Part shown: one piece after another, positions 42,296 through 62,141 of the stretch
Numbering within the stretch: the first letter of the stretch is position 1
Layout: every line of letters starts with the position of its first letter
DNA from: a virus
Length of the DNA stretch: 64,000 nucleotides
Virus record (IMG/VR): IMGVR_UViG_3300031576_000030
Span: 10,969-74,968 of that record
Direction: 5' to 3' (one strand)
Made by a program: the position numbers and the translations under genes
The notes under the pieces: generated by a model
Database searches by the model: none
The model's input: only the letters and a program-made list of their open reading frames with translations
What the model was told of the DNA's origin: nothing

Positions 42296-42463
42296 CCCAA
42301 AAAATTCCCGCCCTGCCCGAAATGCGGTCGCAAGGGCTTGCACTATCCCGACCATCCCCATGCCCGTGGCTTCAAGGACTACGACCGCCTGGTCTGCCGC
42401 TTCTGCAAGACCCGGTTCAAGATCACGATAAAGGAAAAGAAAGGCAGGGACAAGACACAATGA
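42292..42463 (+). pseudogene. Small CxxC...CxxC zinc-finger ORF without an in-frame start
   Basis: KFPPCPKCGRKGLH...VCRFCK follows the TGA at 42293-42295; TTG at 42292 is one base out of frame across an A6 run. Confidence 0.45.
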
Positions 42464-42900
42464 AACTCACCCGGAACCTGATTCATTCGATTTTGCGCCA
42501 CGCGGGTTTCCCCAGAGCGACGGCAAAGACTCTGCCATCGGGCTGGCAGAGATGGTCGAAGGGATACATCACCTTGAAGATTGTTCCCGACCCCATCAAC
42601 GATCACGTTGCGTTACAGTATTCCACCGATCCGAGCGACAAAGCCATGCTGGAGCGCTACCGGGAGGCGCTCGCCCGACGCAATGTTGAGTCGTTCATCC
42701 AGACCTATTATCCGAAAACGCCTTGGGAGTACCATACGCTTTACATCAAGATGGAATCGGATGTTGAAGGCGGTAGACACGAGTGCCCGACGTGCAAGCA
42801 GGTGTTCTCCACACGCCGAGGCCTATCCGCCCACCACACTTGGAAGCACCTCCCACCCTTTCAGGAATCTAATCAGGATAGGCCAGGGCACGACAAATGA
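42460..42900 (+). CDS. Hypothetical protein with C2H2 zinc finger
   Basis: CPTCKQVFSTRRGLSAHHTWKH. Confidence 0.65.
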   Translation: MKLTRNLIHSILRHAGFPRATAKTLPSGWQRWSKGYITLKIVPDPINDHVALQYSTDPSDKAMLERYREALARRNVESFIQTYYPKTPWEYHTLYIKMESDVEGGRHECPTCKQVFSTRRGLSAHHTWKHLPPFQESNQDRPGHDK

Positions 42901-43116
42901 CACCCTACCTCACCGGTCTATACTGGCTCACCATCCGGCCCGAATACGAGCCGACTCGTCCGGTTCGCGCTCACAAGAAAGGCATCACCCCATGATGGAT
43001 GCCTATGCCCTGGGGTTTTTCCACGGGGTGTTGGGTTGCCTGGCATCCTACGTGATCGCCACCGTCGTGACGGGCTTGGCCTGGTTCGAGTGGATGAAAC
43101 ACAAAGCGTCGGTGAG

Positions 43117-43533
43117 ATGAAGTTCCCTCCCGATGCGCGGTTATCCGCCTGGCGCATCCGCGTCCCACCGCTGGCGAGCGATGACAGTTATGGCAACAAC
43201 GGCGCATTCCTGGTGCCGGGGCCGCATCGGGTGGCGCTGCAGGTGATCGCTTCCGATGGAATGGGGTGGGATCACGTCAGCGTCAGCCCTCAAGCGCCGC
43301 GAACCCCTTTATGGGACGAGATGGACTTCGTGAAGTCCATCTTTTGGGACGACAAAGAGGCCGTCATGCAACTGCACCCGCCCCGATCTACTTGGGTAAA
43401 TAACCATCCGTATGTGTTGCACCTATGGCGACCTCTGGGCGGGATAGAGATTCCGCTGCCGCCTGAGAACCTGGTGGGGATCAAAGCGGCGGGTACATTC
43501 GACGTCAAGTTCAGTGCAACACGATCATCTTAA
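43117..43533 (+). CDS. Conserved phage hypothetical protein
   Basis: GNNGAF, ASDGMGWDHVSVS, WDEMDFVKSIFW, LHLWRP. Confidence 0.75.
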   Translation: MKFPPDARLSAWRIRVPPLASDDSYGNNGAFLVPGPHRVALQVIASDGMGWDHVSVSPQAPRTPLWDEMDFVKSIFWDDKEAVMQLHPPRSTWVNNHPYVLHLWRPLGGIEIPLPPENLVGIKAAGTFDVKFSATRSS

Positions 43534-43543
43534 GGAGGTGGAC

Positions 43544-44176
43544 ATGAACAATATCACCACGACCCAGTACGACCTGCACATCACCCTGACCGCGCCGCTG
43601 CTGGGGACACAGCCGCCCAAAGACGTGGCGACCAAGTACCTAACCAGCCAGGTTCTCGACGCAGCCCGCTTGCCATCGAATGTAGTAGAGGTAGGCGACG
43701 ACACCGTGGCCGCCGCAGACGAGTTGGAGACTCTGCCCGAACTGCTGGAGCGCGGCACGACCGCCTTCCACACCCTGGACGGTCGGCCCATCCTGTACAA
43801 CTACCACGTCAAGGGCTTTCTCAAGGAGGCGGGTTCGGTCTTCAACGGCCTGCGCGGAGTCAAGAACCTGCGCTCCAAGATCGACTCGTTGGTGTTCGTG
43901 ACGCCCCGACGCATCGAGTTGTACCACGACCAGCCGATGGGGATTCTGGAACGGCCTTTGCGGGCCATGACCGCCCAAGGCCCGCGCACAGCGCTCGCCC
44001 GTTCCGAGATGTTGCCGGAGGGGACACGCTTTGACTGCCTCTTGGAAGTCTACGACGGCCCGATCAGCCATCTACTGCTGACCGACCTCCTCAGTTATGG
44101 AGAAAAAAAGGGGCTGGGTCAGTGGCGGAACTCTTCCGTCTACGGCACGTTTTCCTTCGTCCTCGTCAAGCGATAG
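43544..44176 (+). CDS. Stand-alone RAMP-superfamily (Cas7-like, Vipr-like) protein
   Basis: AAGGAGG RBS; ITLTAPLLGT first strand, HVKGFLKEA helix, SEMLPEGTRF, C-terminal G-rich loop YGEKKGLGQWRNSSVYGTF. Confidence 0.75.
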   Translation: MNNITTTQYDLHITLTAPLLGTQPPKDVATKYLTSQVLDAARLPSNVVEVGDDTVAAADELETLPELLERGTTAFHTLDGRPILYNYHVKGFLKEAGSVFNGLRGVKNLRSKIDSLVFVTPRRIELYHDQPMGILERPLRAMTAQGPRTALARSEMLPEGTRFDCLLEVYDGPISHLLLTDLLSYGEKKGLGQWRNSSVYGTFSFVLVKR

Positions 44177-44464
44177 CGAGGTATCGTATCGTGAGTGCCC
44201 GGTGTTGCATTGCGTTGCATGGGCATGGTGAGGTGGAGTGAAGCGTTGCTCTGGCAGGGTGAAGCAGGGTGTAGTCCGGCATAGCAACCGCAGAGTATGG
44301 ACGAGTGTTGCGAACGCGATGTGGAGTAAGGCGCCGTTTAGCGCAGGTATAGTTCGGTGTTTCGCAGCACCAGCGAGGTTGTGCCAAGTGGAGCGAAGGC
44401 GCAGTACGGTTTGGCAGCGCGAGGGCAAAGCCAGGTGATGTACCGCTCAGGTATAGCGGGGTGG
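44175..44464 (+). ncRNA. Periodic NGY-NN pentamer array, candidate guide RNA array
   Basis: 56 pentamers (54 match NGY-NN) in 11 blocks separated by single extra bases, starting at the RAMP stop codon. Confidence 0.75.
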
Positions 44465-44631
44465 GAATCACCGGCATACTGACCATAACCTTTGTGGTCT
44501 TGAAGTTAGCCCACGTGATTGATTGGTCGTGGGTGTGGGTACTTGCCCCCGCGTGGGGGACGTGCTTGCTGATACCCTTGTTCGTGGCGACTTTCATCGC
44601 CTTGACCTTCCTGTTGGAACTGCGGAAGTGA
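44461..44631 (+). CDS. 56-aa phage membrane protein
   Basis: GILTITFVVLKLAHVIDWSWVWVLAPAW, a familiar phage transmembrane motif; GTG start. Confidence 0.7.
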   Translation: MGITGILTITFVVLKLAHVIDWSWVWVLAPAWGTCLLIPLFVATFIALTFLLELRK

Positions 44632-44639
44632 AACACAGT

Positions 44640-44668
44640 CGGGCCGGGAGTAAGTCATTCCCGGCCCG
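44640..44668. terminator. Hairpin between convergent transcription units
   Basis: CGGGCCGGGA-loop-TCCCGGCCCG 10-bp stem. Confidence 0.65.
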
Positions 44669-44676
44669 CGTGGTGA

Positions 44677-45078
44677 TCAGGGCTTGCGCGATGCGGTCAG
44701 CGCATCCACCACGCCCTTGCCCAAAATCGCCATGACCAGGAACTCACTGAGCAGGGTCACGGCGTCCTCGGGGATGCTGATGCCCACGGCGGTGAGGCCG
44801 GAAACGCCCAACTGGGCCAACACTGCGATGAGGGCCATCCTCATCTTCTGCCCCTTGAGTACCGCGATGCCACTGGAGTAGTTGGGCTTGTAAGCCCCCT
44901 CGAAGATAGCCCCCACCACCACTGCCCAGGCAGCGGTGATGGCGGTCGTCACCGCCTCCACCGGCAGGGCGATCCCGGCCCTCGGTGCCAACAGCCCCAG
45001 GGCCGTCACCACCAGAGCGACTACGACGGTCGTGACCTCGTTGCGCTTCAGGAAATTGCCAATCGCGCTTGTGCTCAT
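44677..45078 (-). CDS. Holin-like membrane protein
   Basis: Two similar TM hairpins (GIALPVEAVT / GISIPEDAVT); end of lysis cluster. Confidence 0.6.
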   Translation of the reverse strand: MSTSAIGNFLKRNEVTTVVVALVVTALGLLAPRAGIALPVEAVTTAITAAWAVVVGAIFEGAYKPNYSSGIAVLKGQKMRMALIAVLAQLGVSGLTAVGISIPEDAVTLLSEFLVMAILGKGVVDALTASRKP

Positions 45079-45090
45079 GTTTGCCTCCGT

Positions 45091-45618
45091 TTACTGATAG
45101 GGCAGCGCCGCACACTGTTGCGGCCTCTGCTGCCTCGGGTACTGCCTCCAGATCGGATGCCGCTCCCCACTCCAATCAAACACCAGTGGAGGCCGGTAGA
45201 TACGCGGTGTTTCCCAATCCTCGGTCGGCGGCGGACACGCGCCGAACCACACCTGCCCCTGTACTCCTGTCTCAAAACCCAATCGGCGAGCCAGCCAGCG
45301 CGGCACCTCGGCCACCTCGCCGTTCACGTAGACGTTTCGCCAGAAGTGATGCCTGGCGCTGGTGTCCAGCACCAAGCAGGGTCCAAACCAAGGCCGGTCG
45401 CTCACCCTTACCCAGGCGATGCGCCCCAAGTGCGCCGGGGACATGGCCGAGATGCCGCAACGTTGGCGATAGGGCCGCAGGTCGTACCCCCGAAACCATG
45501 CCTGATCTTCCACCGTCTGCTGCGCCCCATAATTCACCAGAAGCCCCATCGACCACTGCGGCTGCGGCGTGAGCCAGGTCGTGACGGCAACGAGGGTCGC
45601 CAAGGTACTTGCAATCAC
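45091..45618 (-). CDS. Secreted hypothetical protein in the lysis cluster
   Basis: Hydrophobic N-terminus; GPCLVLD strand weakly suggests a double-psi beta-barrel. Confidence 0.55.
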   Translation of the reverse strand: MIASTLATLVAVTTWLTPQPQWSMGLLVNYGAQQTVEDQAWFRGYDLRPYRQRCGISAMSPAHLGRIAWVRVSDRPWFGPCLVLDTSARHHFWRNVYVNGEVAEVPRWLARRLGFETGVQGQVWFGACPPPTEDWETPRIYRPPLVFDWSGERHPIWRQYPRQQRPQQCAALPYQ

Positions 45619-61119: not shown

Positions 61120-62141
61120 GTGATCGTCACCTCGATGGGCGACTCCGAGAAGGCCACCTCCGTCACCTGCACCACCGGGCTATCGGCCACGGTGATGGTC
61201 ACGACCACGTCGAAGGCCGTGCCCAGCCCCGACTTGAGGCCGATGAGCGCCCCGGCCCAGGTCAGCACACCGCTCAGGCTGCGGGTGATTCTGCGGTTGA
61301 GCGCCCCGGCCCAGGTTAGTGTTCCCGCCAGGACTTTTTGCGTTTGCTTGAACAGGACGCCGGAAGAGGCGAGCGTTCCCGTGAGTGAGACGAACGCCGT
61401 GCGTAACGTCGTGAGCGCGCCGGAGGTCGTGAGCGTCCCGGACAGGACTTTGCGGGCTTGCTTCAGCAGGGTTCCGCTGCTGGTCAACGTCCCGGCCAAT
61501 ACCTTTTGCGCTTGCTTGGTCAGCGCGCCGGCAGAAGTCAGTGTGCCCTCCACCGACTTGAGCGCGATCTTGATCGCCGTCAATGCGCCAGAGGAGGTCA
61601 GCGTCCCGGCCAGCACCTTCTGGGCTTGTTTCAGAAGACTGCCCGCCGAGGTCAGCGTTCCCACCAGAACCTTCTGAGCCTGTTTGGTGAGCGCGCCCGC
61701 TGAAGTCAGCGTGCCTTCGACCGTCTTGAGAGCGATCTTGATCGCCGTCAGTACACCGGATGAAGTCAGCGTACCCGATAACACCTTCTGTGTCTGCTTC
61801 AACAGGCTGCCCGAGGTCGTCAACGTACCCGCTAGAACCTTTTGAGCCTGTTTGAGCAGACTGCCGGAAGAGGTCAATGTGCCCGCCAAGACCTTCTGTT
61901 CTTGTTTGAGTAGATCGCCGGAGGTGGTCAATGTGCCGCTCAATACCTTTTGCGCCTGTTTCAGCAGAGCGCCCGAGGTGGTCAACGTGCCCGCCAATAT
62001 CTTCTGCGTCTGTTTGGCGAGCGCGCCTGCCGAGGTCAACGTGCCCTCCACGCTCTGAAAGAACATCTGCGCGCCCCCAGGTCCAAAGACCGAGCGGCGA
62101 CGAACGCGGTAATCGAAGCGACGCCGATAGACTCCGGCCAC
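61116..62141 (-). CDS. Ser/Thr-rich tandem repeat structural protein
   Basis: 15 units of GTLT(S/T)xGxLxKQxQKVL(A/S), 18 or 20 aa each. Confidence 0.8.
   Translation of the reverse strand: MAGVYRRRFDYRVRRRSVFGPGGAQMFFQSVEGTLTSAGALAKQTQKILAGTLTTSGALLKQAQKVLSGTLTTSGDLLKQEQKVLAGTLTSSGSLLKQAQKVLAGTLTTSGSLLKQTQKVLSGTLTSSGVLTAIKIALKTVEGTLTSAGALTKQAQKVLVGTLTSAGSLLKQAQKVLAGTLTSSGALTAIKIALKSVEGTLTSAGALTKQAQKVLAGTLTSSGTLLKQARKVLSGTLTTSGALTTLRTAFVSLTGTLASSGVLFKQTQKVLAGTLTWAGALNRRITRSLSGVLTWAGALIGLKSGLGTAFDVVVTITVADSPVVQVTEVAFSESPIEVTIT

What the first reader, a model, noticed from the sequence alone, without database searches (positions are those of the whole stretch)
43544..44464. Stand-alone RAMP/Cas7-like gene plus a pentamer-periodic array: candidate non-CRISPR RNA-guided system (VIPR-like)
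Seen: a 210-aa ORF with RAMP hallmarks (ITLTAPLLGT first strand, VKGFLKEA helix, C-terminal G-rich loop GLGQWRN..YGTF). No cas1, cas3, cas5, cas6, cas8 or cas10 and no CRISPR repeat-spacer array is recognisable in the window. Starting in its stop codon, 290 nt parse into 56 pentamers NGY-NN, of which 54 conform (exceptions GGA-CG and TTC-GC), e.g. GGC AT GGT GA GGT GG AGT GA AGC GT TGC TC. Established: Cas7-type RAMPs polymerise along guide RNA with a fixed nucleotide period. From memory, phage RAMP plus alternating GGY/NN repeat RNA systems have recently been reported as VIPR; this needs a literature check. Inference: each subunit grips a fixed GY and presents the variable bases, giving a gapped guide code for DNA binding, perhaps against competing phages or for gene silencing. 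No nuclease partner is evident.
Basis: partly seen in the sequence, partly recalled or inferred. Interest (0 to 1): 0.95.

Follow-up and report, generated by a model that had tools for sequence, protein, structure and literature searches.

The report
Phage VIPR locus: Vipr plus guide array
This uncultured 75-kb phage carries a small Cas7-like protein gene followed by a 290-base array of five-letter repeats, a real example of the VIPR RNA-guided DNA-silencing systems first described in 2026 preprints, so it is genuine but no longer new.

Summary
ORF 43544-44176 has a confident Cas7/Csm3-type RAMP fold. From its stop codon onward, 290 nt parse into 56 N-G-Y-N-N units, and 54 of them conform.

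VIPR is real literature: three bioRxiv preprints from 2026. The protein family matches the family of the experimentally studied SUSP1 Vipr over its full length (hhalign 96.7%, E 3.6e-10). The residues that hold G2 and Y3 (W, R) are kept. The two that read G1 (H17, D177) are deleted or changed to Q, which fits the relaxed first letter.

Of 37 homologous loci at 38% identity or more, 27 carry the same punctuated array beside the gene. In near-identical gut phages the blocks are gained, lost and duplicated as cassettes.

The contig has no cas genes, CRISPR array, conserved accessory gene, 3' tail or ribozyme. No targets were found, and expression is untested.

This scan has already noted VIPR-like loci in at least 276 other genomes. 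Verdict: a new member of a known kind, of modest interest. The hexamer punctuation is the only part that may be undescribed.

The parts
42897..42924 (+). Candidate sigma-70-like promoter (ATGACA-16-TATACT) upstream of the DUF7694 gene. It could drive a DUF7694-vipr-array-tm56 transcript.
   Evidence: It is a consensus match only: 1 site found against 0.7 expected by chance, so the evidence is weak.
43532..43538 (+). Shine-Dalgarno sequence AAGGAGG, 5 nt before the vipr ATG.
   Evidence: Read directly from the sequence.
43544..44176 (+). vipr gene: a 210-aa single-RRM RAMP. Features: beta-1 at residues 6-15, helical insertion 26-68, RRM helix-1 86-99, thumb hairpin 133-157, and G-loop 190-201 (GLGQWRN..YGTF).
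   Evidence: The AF2 model has pLDDT 81.5. Foldseek's top PDB hits are Cas7/Csm3, E 2e-7. VIA-align gives Csm3 6ae2_B at Z 13.0, and the top 21 hits are all CRISPR RAMPs. hhalign against the SUSP1 Vipr family gives 96.7%, E 3.6e-10, over 184 columns.
44175..44464 (+). vrRNA-type array: 56 N-G-Y-N-N units (46 pentamers and 10 hexamers), 54 of them conforming. It fills the whole gap between the vipr stop codon and the start of the next gene.
   Evidence: As RNA it folds no better than shuffled sequence (z +0.29). No Rfam family matches.
44175..44195 (+). Block 1: 4 units, 21 nt, ending in the hexamer CGTGAG.
44196..44221 (+). Block 2: 5 units, 26 nt, ending in TGCATG.
44222..44252 (+). Block 3: 6 units, 31 nt, starting GGCAT and ending TGCTCT.
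44253..44288 (+). Block 4: 7 units, 36 nt, starting GGCAG and ending AGCAAC. This is the longest block.
44289..44314 (+). Block 5: 5 units, 26 nt. It contains the non-conforming unit GGACG.
44315..44345 (+). Block 6: 6 units, 31 nt.
44346..44371 (+). Block 7: 5 units, 26 nt. It contains the non-conforming unit TTCGC.
44372..44397 (+). Block 8: 5 units, 26 nt.
44398..44423 (+). Block 9: 5 units, 26 nt.
44424..44449 (+). Block 10: 5 units, 26 nt.
44450..44464 (+). Last, open block: 3 units. It overlaps the GTG start of the next gene.
44461..44631 (+). Downstream 56-aa membrane-protein gene (phrog_1374). It is probably on the same transcript and is not a conserved partner of vipr.
   Evidence: E 7.7e-15. 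It is absent from the 80 homologous loci.
44640..44668 (.). Perfect 10-bp GC-rich hairpin (CGGGCCGGGA...TCCCGGCCCG) between convergent genes. It is the likely end of the transcript.
   Evidence: Read directly from the sequence. The terminator scan did not call it because it has no T-run.

Best explanation
This is a VIPR (Viral Interference Programmable Repeat) system on an uncultured ~75-kb phage. It consists of a stand-alone vipr gene (43544-44176) and, co-transcribed directly behind it, a tail-less vrRNA array (44175-44464).

Inferred by homology with the SUSP1 and P. fulva systems: Vipr protomers polymerise on the RNA, one per N-G-Y-N-N unit. Each G-Y is clamped by the G-loop tryptophan and arginine (W194, R195) and by the thumb. 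The two following bases are presented for pairing. The filament binds double-stranded DNA while skipping every third target base, and it silences transcription of a competitor (a rival phage, satellite or host gene) without cutting.

Specific to this clade: the first scaffold letter is free. This fits the loss of the two residues that read G1 in SUSP1 Vipr, since H17 falls in a 5-residue deletion and D177 is replaced by Q193. In addition, a one-base insertion every 4-7 units, followed by a GGC start, cuts the array into about 11 cassettes of 21-36 nt. I take these cassettes to be the guide units, or at least the units of filament register. I put about 0.5 on that sub-claim.
For: Fold:
- The AF2 model has pLDDT 81.5.
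- Foldseek and VIA-align top hits are all Cas7-type RAMPs; Csm3 gives Z 13.0, rmsd 2.6 over 144 aa.

Homology:
- The window family (43 sequences) against the SUSP1 Vipr family (30 sequences) gives hhalign 96.7%, E 3.6e-10, over 184 of about 200 columns. GxGDWRPRFGRF aligns with GxGQWRNxxYGxF.
- G190, Q193, W194 and R195 are nearly invariant in the family.
- The residue roles come from the cryo-EM preprint.

Array:
- 54 of 56 units conform, far beyond shuffled controls and the rest of the contig.
- It is on the same strand as the gene and is unstructured as RNA.

Conserved association:
- 27 of 37 loci at 38% identity or more have a chain of at least 14 units within 700 nt of the gene. Only 1 such chain occurs in 421.6 kb of distant flank.
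- One 111-unit array lies in a Blastocatellia MAG.

Block grammar across 27 loci:
- Blocks are mostly 5 or 6 units long.
- The first unit after a hexamer has G1 in 87% of cases, against 43% elsewhere.
- The hexamer consensus is N-G-C-R-A-N.

Cassette behaviour:
- Seven gut phages have 98-99% identical Vipr proteins and identical flanks.
- Their arrays differ by whole-block gain, loss and duplication and by changes at the N positions, while the GC columns stay invariant.

Other support:
- A six-unit guide (18-bp footprint) is functional in SUSP1.
- The context is viral: a virus record with a terminase-like ATPase, an M23 endolysin and PHROG hits.
- There are no cas genes or CRISPR repeats.
Against: - There is no expression, RNP or binding data for this locus or this clade. 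Everything mechanistic is transferred from type II systems whose proteins resemble this one only at the profile level.
- The window's array is looser than those of its relatives. Only 6 of 10 blocks start with GG, and the block-end hexamers are poorly conserved.
- There is no 3' tail or pseudoknot, which caps the filament in type II, and no accessory vap gene.
- Single blocks specify only 8-14 bases, which is little for unique targeting.
- If the first and last unit of each block are semi-conserved handles, as in L219, even fewer bases are free.
Confidence: 0.82

Rival explanations
1. It is the same VIPR system, but the hexamers are not guide boundaries. One or a few long filaments read through them, with the extra base flipped out along with N-G-Y. 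This could act as a register correction about once per helical turn, since the published filaments have 5-6 subunits and about 25 nt of RNA per turn.
For: Blocks of 5-6 units match the 5-6 subunits per turn reported. Single blocks carry very little specificity. No processing signal, ribozyme or hairpin lies between blocks.
Against: Block sizes range from 4 to 10 units within one array, which does not suit a fixed geometric need. Blocks are exchanged as whole cassettes between near-identical phages. Block starts (GGC) and ends are sequence-marked.
Confidence: 0.25
2. It is a decaying or inactive VIPR relic. The gene is intact, but the array has drifted and no longer guides anything.
For: The window's block starts and ends are less regular than in relatives. 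Two units have lost GY.
Against: 54 of 56 units keep GY and the ORF is intact with a strong Shine-Dalgarno sequence. All invariant family residues that were checked are present. The array exactly fills the intergenic space.
Confidence: 0.08
3. The RNP targets RNA (transcripts of a competitor) rather than double-stranded DNA.
For: The closest solved folds are RNA-targeting type III and VII Cas7 proteins. SUSP1 VIPR can pair with ssRNA in vitro.
Against: In the characterised systems, RNA targets give incomplete filaments and silencing works on either DNA strand. No catalytic Csm3-type site was examined or found here.
Confidence: 0.07
4. The periodic tract works at the DNA level, as iterons, an origin or a structural element with a 5.2-bp period (half a B-DNA helical turn). 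It is not a guide RNA.
For: The mean period of 5.2 bp is close to half of 10.4-10.5 bp. No transcript data exist.
Against: The signal is strand-specific (GY on the gene strand only). It always abuts a Vipr-family gene across unrelated genomes. The family's G-loop keeps the residues that hold G and Y of the RNA in the solved complex.
Confidence: 0.03

Closest known systems
Type II VIPR of Escherichia phage SUSP1 and the Pseudomonas fulva prophage (bioRxiv 10.64898/2026.04.26.720920, .720927, 10.64898/2026.10.15.759431)
   Same: Both have a roughly 200-aa single-RRM RAMP with a thumb and a GxGxWR G-loop, and the two families are profile-homologous over their full length. Both have a tandem five-letter repeat array on the gene strand, are phage-encoded, and lack cas genes, a CRISPR array and a nuclease.
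   Different: - The scaffold here is N-G-Y, not G-G-Y (D177 becomes Q, H17 is deleted).
- SUSP1 repeats run in strict period 5 for 12-15 units and then carry a conserved tail of about 40-60 nt with a pseudoknot. Here there is no tail, and a +1 hexamer occurs every 4-7 units.
- SUSP1 has vap1. Here no conserved neighbour exists.
- The proteins are too distant for pairwise BLAST.
[quoted passage not shown]
   Same: N-G-Y-N-N read from the Y is Y-N-N-N-G. The array is continuous, and one guide ends where the next begins. The vipr gene stands alone.
   Different: The figures, tables and type assignments are not held. I therefore cannot tell whether the published 'staggered' arrays are this +1-punctuated architecture, or which of types I-VII this clade belongs to.
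Non-canonical VIPR arrays found with a genomic language model (bioRxiv 10.64898/2026.10.21.760802)
   Same: These are period-5 arrays with a degenerate position in the fixed triplet (for example WGT/NN, TGH/NN) next to Vipr-like folds.
   Different: That paper models strict XYZNN 5-mers. The text I could read does not mention hexamer punctuation.
CRISPR-Cas Cas7 backbone subunits (Csm3, Cmr4, type VII Cas7, Csf2)
   Same: They are the best structural matches (Z 10-13). They share the RRM core, the G-loop and a thumb that interrupts the guide at a fixed period.
   Different: The period is 6 nt with one flipped base and a contiguous spacer. They need a CRISPR array, Cas6 or Cas5 processing and other cas genes, none of which is present here.
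TIGR-Tas tandem interspaced guide RNA systems
   Same: They are also non-CRISPR, phage-associated, RNA-guided DNA-targeting systems with short tandem guide arrays (from my own knowledge and the mention).
   Different: The effector has a Nop domain rather than a RAMP fold. The array period is about 18 nt, and the guide logic is a dual spacer.

Membership tests
VIPR system | The Vipr protein is a minimal single-RRM RAMP with a G-loop and a thumb. | tested here: met
   AF2 model. Foldseek finds Cas7/Csm3 at E 2e-7. VIA-align gives Csm3 at Z 13.0, and the top 21 hits are all RAMPs.
VIPR system | Sequence homology to an experimentally characterised Vipr (SUSP1). | tested here: met
   hhalign of A3 against A2 gives 96.7%, E 3.6e-10, over 184 columns. 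Pairwise BLAST is not significant.
VIPR system | The residues that clamp G2 and Y3 of the repeat (SUSP1 W178, R179) are present. | tested here: met
   W194 and R195 align with them and are nearly invariant.
VIPR system | The residues that read G1 (SUSP1 H17, D177) are present. | tested here: not met
   H17 falls in a 5-residue deletion and D177 aligns with Q193. This agrees with G1 being only 43% G in the arrays. It is a feature of the canonical GGY types, not of all published types.
VIPR system | A tandem pentanucleotide array (GGY/NN or a related consensus) lies beside vipr on the same strand. | tested here: met
   54 of 56 N-G-Y-N-N units conform, starting at the stop codon.
VIPR system | The array accompanies the gene across homologues. 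| tested here: met
   27 of 37 loci at 38% identity or more carry one, against 1 chain in 421.6 kb of distant flank.
VIPR system | Scaffold letters are conserved and NN letters are hypervariable between close relatives. | tested here: inconclusive
   This holds in a gut-phage subgroup of the family. The window itself has no relative closer than 65% protein identity, so it could not be tested on this array.
VIPR system | A conserved structured 3' tail caps each vrRNA (type II feature). | tested here: not met
   There is no conserved non-repeat segment between blocks. The fold z-score is +0.29 and there is no Rfam hit. The preprint describes tail-less, staggered and single-guide architectures too.
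VIPR system | An accessory vap gene is present. | tested here: not met
   None of the 10 neighbouring genes recurs in the 80 homologous loci. The preprint also reports stand-alone vipr genes, and names six vap families for seven types.
VIPR system | The system sits in a viral or proviral genome, with no cas genes and no CRISPR array. | tested here: met
   It is a virus record of 74,968 bp with phage genes. There are no CRISPR-like repeats and no PADLOC or NCBIfam cas hit for vipr or the three adjacent genes tested; the rest of the contig was not scanned against cas models.
VIPR system | The vrRNA is expressed and forms an RNP with Vipr. | not testable with these tools
   This needs small-RNA sequencing and a pull-down.
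VIPR system | Guides match natural DNA targets under the 1-nt skip rule. | tested here: inconclusive
   No match above shuffled controls was found in the contig or in 1.36 Mb of loci (both strands counted). An IMG/VR seed gave only chance-level hits. Exact long patterns gave 0 hits.
CRISPR-Cas class 1 (orphan Cas7) | A CRISPR repeat-spacer array and other cas genes (cas5/6/8/10, cas1/2) are in the neighbourhood. | tested here: not met
   No 14-mer on the whole 75-kb contig recurs three or more times with at least two successive copies spaced 45-100 nt apart.

The most novel reading that the evidence does not exclude
The one-base (+1) hexamer followed by a GGC start may be a previously undescribed punctuation mark. 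It would let a tail-less VIPR array encode many very short guides (4-7 units, 8-14 read bases) back to back by breaking the filament register, with no ribozyme, hairpin or tail. The Q-for-D G-loop and the H17 deletion would define a relaxed-scaffold Vipr clade with more than 1,300 clusters at 50% identity. If the 'staggered arrays' of the preprint are something else, this would be a distinct array grammar.
Probability: 0.25. Interest if true: 0.55.

Novelty: new member of a known kind. Interest (0 to 1): 0.3.

Why it matters
The locus adds a well-defined, minimal example (one gene plus 290 nt) from a high-GC environmental phage to the VIPR class. It also gives a natural test of the published recognition code. 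The clade has lost both residues that read the first guanine, and its arrays have lost that guanine. This is the protein-RNA covariation the cryo-EM model predicts.

The regular +1 punctuation, and the cassette-like exchange of blocks between near-identical phages, suggest how dozens of short guides can be packed without processing signals. That could matter for engineering compact multiplexed VIPR tools. As a discovery in itself it is no longer new. The class was published in April 2026, and this scan has flagged it in hundreds of genomes.

Tried and rejected
- Sequence libraries: Pfam, PHROGs, NCBIfam, PADLOC and PDB-sequence searches with the protein found nothing. Pairwise BLAST to SUSP1 Vipr gave only a 27-residue G-loop match. 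A narrow profile against the single SUSP1 sequence gave only 26% probability. A wider profile against a wider profile was needed.
- Strict period-5 parse: it fails after 4 units, which led to the 5/6-step parse.
- Accessory gene: none of the neighbours is conserved. The small Zn-ribbon protein seen in 5 related loci is absent from this contig.
- Ribozymes and known RNAs: none in 43000-45200. There are no hammerheads inside the arrays of L001-L020.
- Targets in local sequence: self-targeting in the 75-kb contig is no better than shuffled guides. Guides of 7 or more units from all loci, tested against 1.36 Mb of sequence (both strands counted), show no difference between skip 0, 1, 2 and 3.
Three 10-unit guides from relatives gave 0 exact hits.
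- Targets in metagenomes: two 12-unit read-through patterns, with junction skips of 1 or 2, gave 0 hits. All of these target searches are inconclusive, because only exact patterns can be searched and natural targets often match at 80-90%.
- Codon-phase test: the NN composition fits sense codon positions 1-2 best (-3.90 bits per unit, against -4.0 for a uniform model and -4.3 for other phases). This is too weak to use as evidence.
- Host: tblastn of the terminase-like ATPase found only one uncultured phage. The closest Vipr homologues lie in Chloroflexota and Blastocatellia MAGs, which is only a hint.
- Type assignment (I-VII): not possible, because the preprint's figures and tables are not held.
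- Complex prediction for the homo-oligomer: not run. The tool's own guidance says filaments are rarely worth a job, and a pass would mostly reflect likeness to solved Cas7 filaments.
Full report
**Observation.** The ORF runs from ATG 43544 to TAG 44174-44176 and encodes 210 aa. AAGGAGG lies 5 nt upstream. From 44175 to 44464 the + strand parses into 56 units with G at position 2 and C/T at position 3.

A strict period-5 frame breaks after four units. The true spacing is 5 nt with a 6-nt step every 4-7 units, giving a mean of 5.2 nt.

The signal is far beyond chance. GY autocorrelation at lag 5 has z = 8.4. The longest unbroken chain is 27 units, or 59 with two lapses. In 1000 dinucleotide-preserving shuffles the mean is 5.8 and the maximum 13. 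The rest of the 75-kb contig reaches at most 9 on the + strand and 7 on the - strand. The signal is on the gene strand only.

**The protein.** No Pfam, PHROG, NCBIfam, PADLOC or PDB-sequence match exists. The protein nevertheless belongs to a large, well conserved family. There are 1,435 hits in the 90%-clustered collection and 1,369 representative clusters at 50% identity with E of 0.001 or better. All named members are called hypothetical.

An AlphaFold model built on 30 relatives is confident, with pLDDT 81.5 and pTM 0.74. Its top Foldseek hits in the PDB are Cas7 subunits of type VII and III complexes, E 2e-7. An independent all-against-all structural search puts Csm3 first (6ae2_B, Z 13.0, rmsd 2.6 A over 144 residues). 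The top 21 hits are all CRISPR RAMPs.

The model's layout is: beta-1, a helical insertion, RRM helix-1 (VKGFLKEA), a long beta-hairpin thumb (133-157), and a glycine-rich loop between alpha-2 and the last strand.

**Literature.** VIPR is real.
- bioRxiv 10.64898/2026.04.26.720920 describes phage-encoded Vipr RAMPs with vrRNAs of alternating GGY/NN. It reports a 1-nt-skip DNA recognition rule, transcriptional silencing of competing elements, and seven types. It also names variant repeats (NNNGG, YNNNG, NNNNG), 'staggered' arrays, ribozyme-interspersed arrays and stand-alone genes.
- bioRxiv 10.64898/2026.04.26.720927 gives cryo-EM structures. One protomer binds each repeat. G1 is read by H17 and D177, G2 by R138 and W178, and Y3 sits in a pocket with R179. 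The filaments have 5-6 subunits per turn.
- bioRxiv 10.64898/2026.10.15.759431 shows that SUSP1 needs VIPR to resist a satellite. One natural guide there has only six units, an 18-bp footprint.
- A fourth preprint recovers VIPR arrays, including degenerate scaffolds, with a language model.

**Membership.** I located the SUSP1 vipr gene in KT454805.2. Its residues H17, K33 and D177-W178-R179 match the paper's numbering. Its arrays are in strict period 5 and each is followed by a tail.

Pairwise similarity to the window protein is confined to the G-loop. A 43-sequence profile of the window's family against a 30-sequence profile of the SUSP1 family aligns over 184 columns, with 96.7% probability and E 3.6e-10.

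In that alignment W178 and R179 correspond to W194 and R195, which are nearly invariant across the family. D177 corresponds to the equally invariant Q193. H17 falls in a five-residue deletion.

The RNA agrees with the protein. Across 27 loci, position 2 is always G by construction and position 3 is C in 67% and T in 33% of units. Position 1 is G in only 43%. So the clade has lost both the G1-reading residues and G1 itself. This covariation is an inference, but it fits the published code.

**Association with the gene.** More than 510 IMG/VR contigs and 40 MAG contigs encode relatives. The MAGs come from Chloroflexota, Acidobacteriota, Desulfobacterota, Bacillota and other phyla.

Among loci at 38% identity or more to the window protein, 27 of 37 have a chain of at least 14 units within 700 nt of the gene, and 26 of these are downstream. 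Only one such chain occurs in 421.6 kb of distant flank. A Blastocatellia MAG has 111 uninterrupted units.

**Array grammar.** In the window the hexamers cut the tract into blocks of 21, 26, 31, 36, 26, 31, 26, 26, 26, 26 and 15+ nt.

Family-wide, blocks are mostly 5 units (55 cases) or 6 units (39 cases). The hexamer consensus is N-G-C-R-A-N. The unit after it starts with G in 87% of cases, typically GGC. Several loci have their own conserved block ends, such as GGCAAT, AGCAAA and CGTAAT. The window's array follows this grammar, but loosely.

In seven gut phages the Vipr proteins are 98-99% identical and the flanks are identical. Their arrays differ by whole-block presence, order and duplication (for example ABCDEFGHIJKL against ABCDEFGHkFGHuvL) and by substitutions at N positions. 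The GC columns stay invariant. Blocks therefore behave as cassettes.

No hairpin, tail, hammerhead or other Rfam family lies in or between the blocks. The array RNA is no more structured than shuffles, z +0.29.

**Context.** The window is part of a single 74,968-bp virus record. Nearby genes are a HerA/terminase-like ATPase, DUF6166, DUF7694 (phrog_7839) directly upstream, a 56-aa membrane protein (phrog_1374) whose GTG start overlaps the last array unit, and an M23 endolysin on the opposite strand.

None of these neighbours recurs beside vipr in 80 related loci, so there is no conserved accessory gene. There are no CRISPR-like repeats.

The array has no promoter-like site of its own. The only one in 42300-44900 lies at 42897-42924. 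A perfect 10-bp hairpin follows at 44640-44668. Co-transcription with vipr is therefore the simplest reading, but it is inferred.

**Targets.** Under the published NN-x rule I found no self-target above shuffled controls. In 1.36 Mb of local sequence (both strands counted) there was no enrichment of skip 1 over skips 0, 2 or 3. The 7-unit block gave only chance-level IMG/VR hits with no extension into neighbouring blocks. Three 10-unit guides from relatives and two 12-unit read-through patterns gave no exact hits.

Because only exact patterns can be searched at scale, this says nothing about whether targets exist. The NN composition leans toward sense codon positions 1-2, as expected for wobble-skipping guides, but only weakly.

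**Mechanism and rivals.**
- Best reading (0.82): a functional VIPR system working like the characterised ones. Within that, I give about even odds that each block is a separate short guide whose filament is stopped by the +1 register break.
- Main alternative: read-through of the hexamers, possibly as a once-per-turn correction.
- Less likely: a decaying relic, RNA targeting, or a DNA-level repeat.
- Excluded: an orphan CRISPR Cas7, because the defining array and the cas partners are absent.

**Verdict.** The class was published in 2026, and this scan has already noted VIPR-like loci in at least 276 genomes. It is therefore a new member of a known kind.

The relaxed N-G-Y scaffold matches variants already named in print. 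The +1 punctuation may or may not be the published 'staggered' architecture, and I could not see the figures to check.

Noticed in passing
L003:4954-5169, L006:2169-2384, L008:3730-3930, L009:4897-5244, L014:5242-5535: A small protein of about 70 aa with a CxxC...CxxC zinc ribbon lies next to the vipr gene or its array in 5 of the 18 closest viral loci. It may be an accessory (vap-like) gene for a subclade. It is absent from the window's contig.
   Followed up: partly
L219:3583-4152 (Blastocatellia MAG JACCVY010000250.1): This is the cleanest relative. It has 111 consecutive GY units in 18 blocks, and nearly every block starts GGC-R-N and ends N-G-Y-A-W-N. It would be a good reference array for the block grammar.
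   Followed up: partly
L012:5366-5420 (- strand): A type III hammerhead ribozyme (Rfam RF00008, 50.9 bits) lies about 2 kb downstream of a vipr array, on the opposite strand. It is not inside the array.
   Followed up: no
window 43036-43533 (+): The gene directly upstream of vipr carries DUF7694 / phrog_7839, of unknown function. It ends 10 nt before the vipr start and follows the only promoter-like site in the region. It is not conserved beside vipr elsewhere.
   Followed up: partly
window 44461-44631 (+): A 56-aa two-helix membrane protein (phrog_1374, E 7.7e-15) has a GTG start inside the last array unit. The array may therefore double as its 5' leader.
   Followed up: no
window 61483-62050: Degenerate tandem repeats of 54, 108 and 168 nt (74-77% matches). 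They probably encode a repeated protein module in a structural gene.
   Followed up: no
window 43670-43740 (protein residues 43-68): Compared with most relatives, the window's Vipr has an extra acidic insertion in the helical bundle (LDAARLPSNVVEVGDDTVAAAD, pLDDT below 50). Similar insertions occur in only two of the 30 aligned homologues.
   Followed up: no
L019:3103-3322 (- strand): A FuFi-1 sRNA (Rfam RF02986, 72.9 bits) lies about 700 nt upstream of a gut-phage vipr gene.
   Followed up: no
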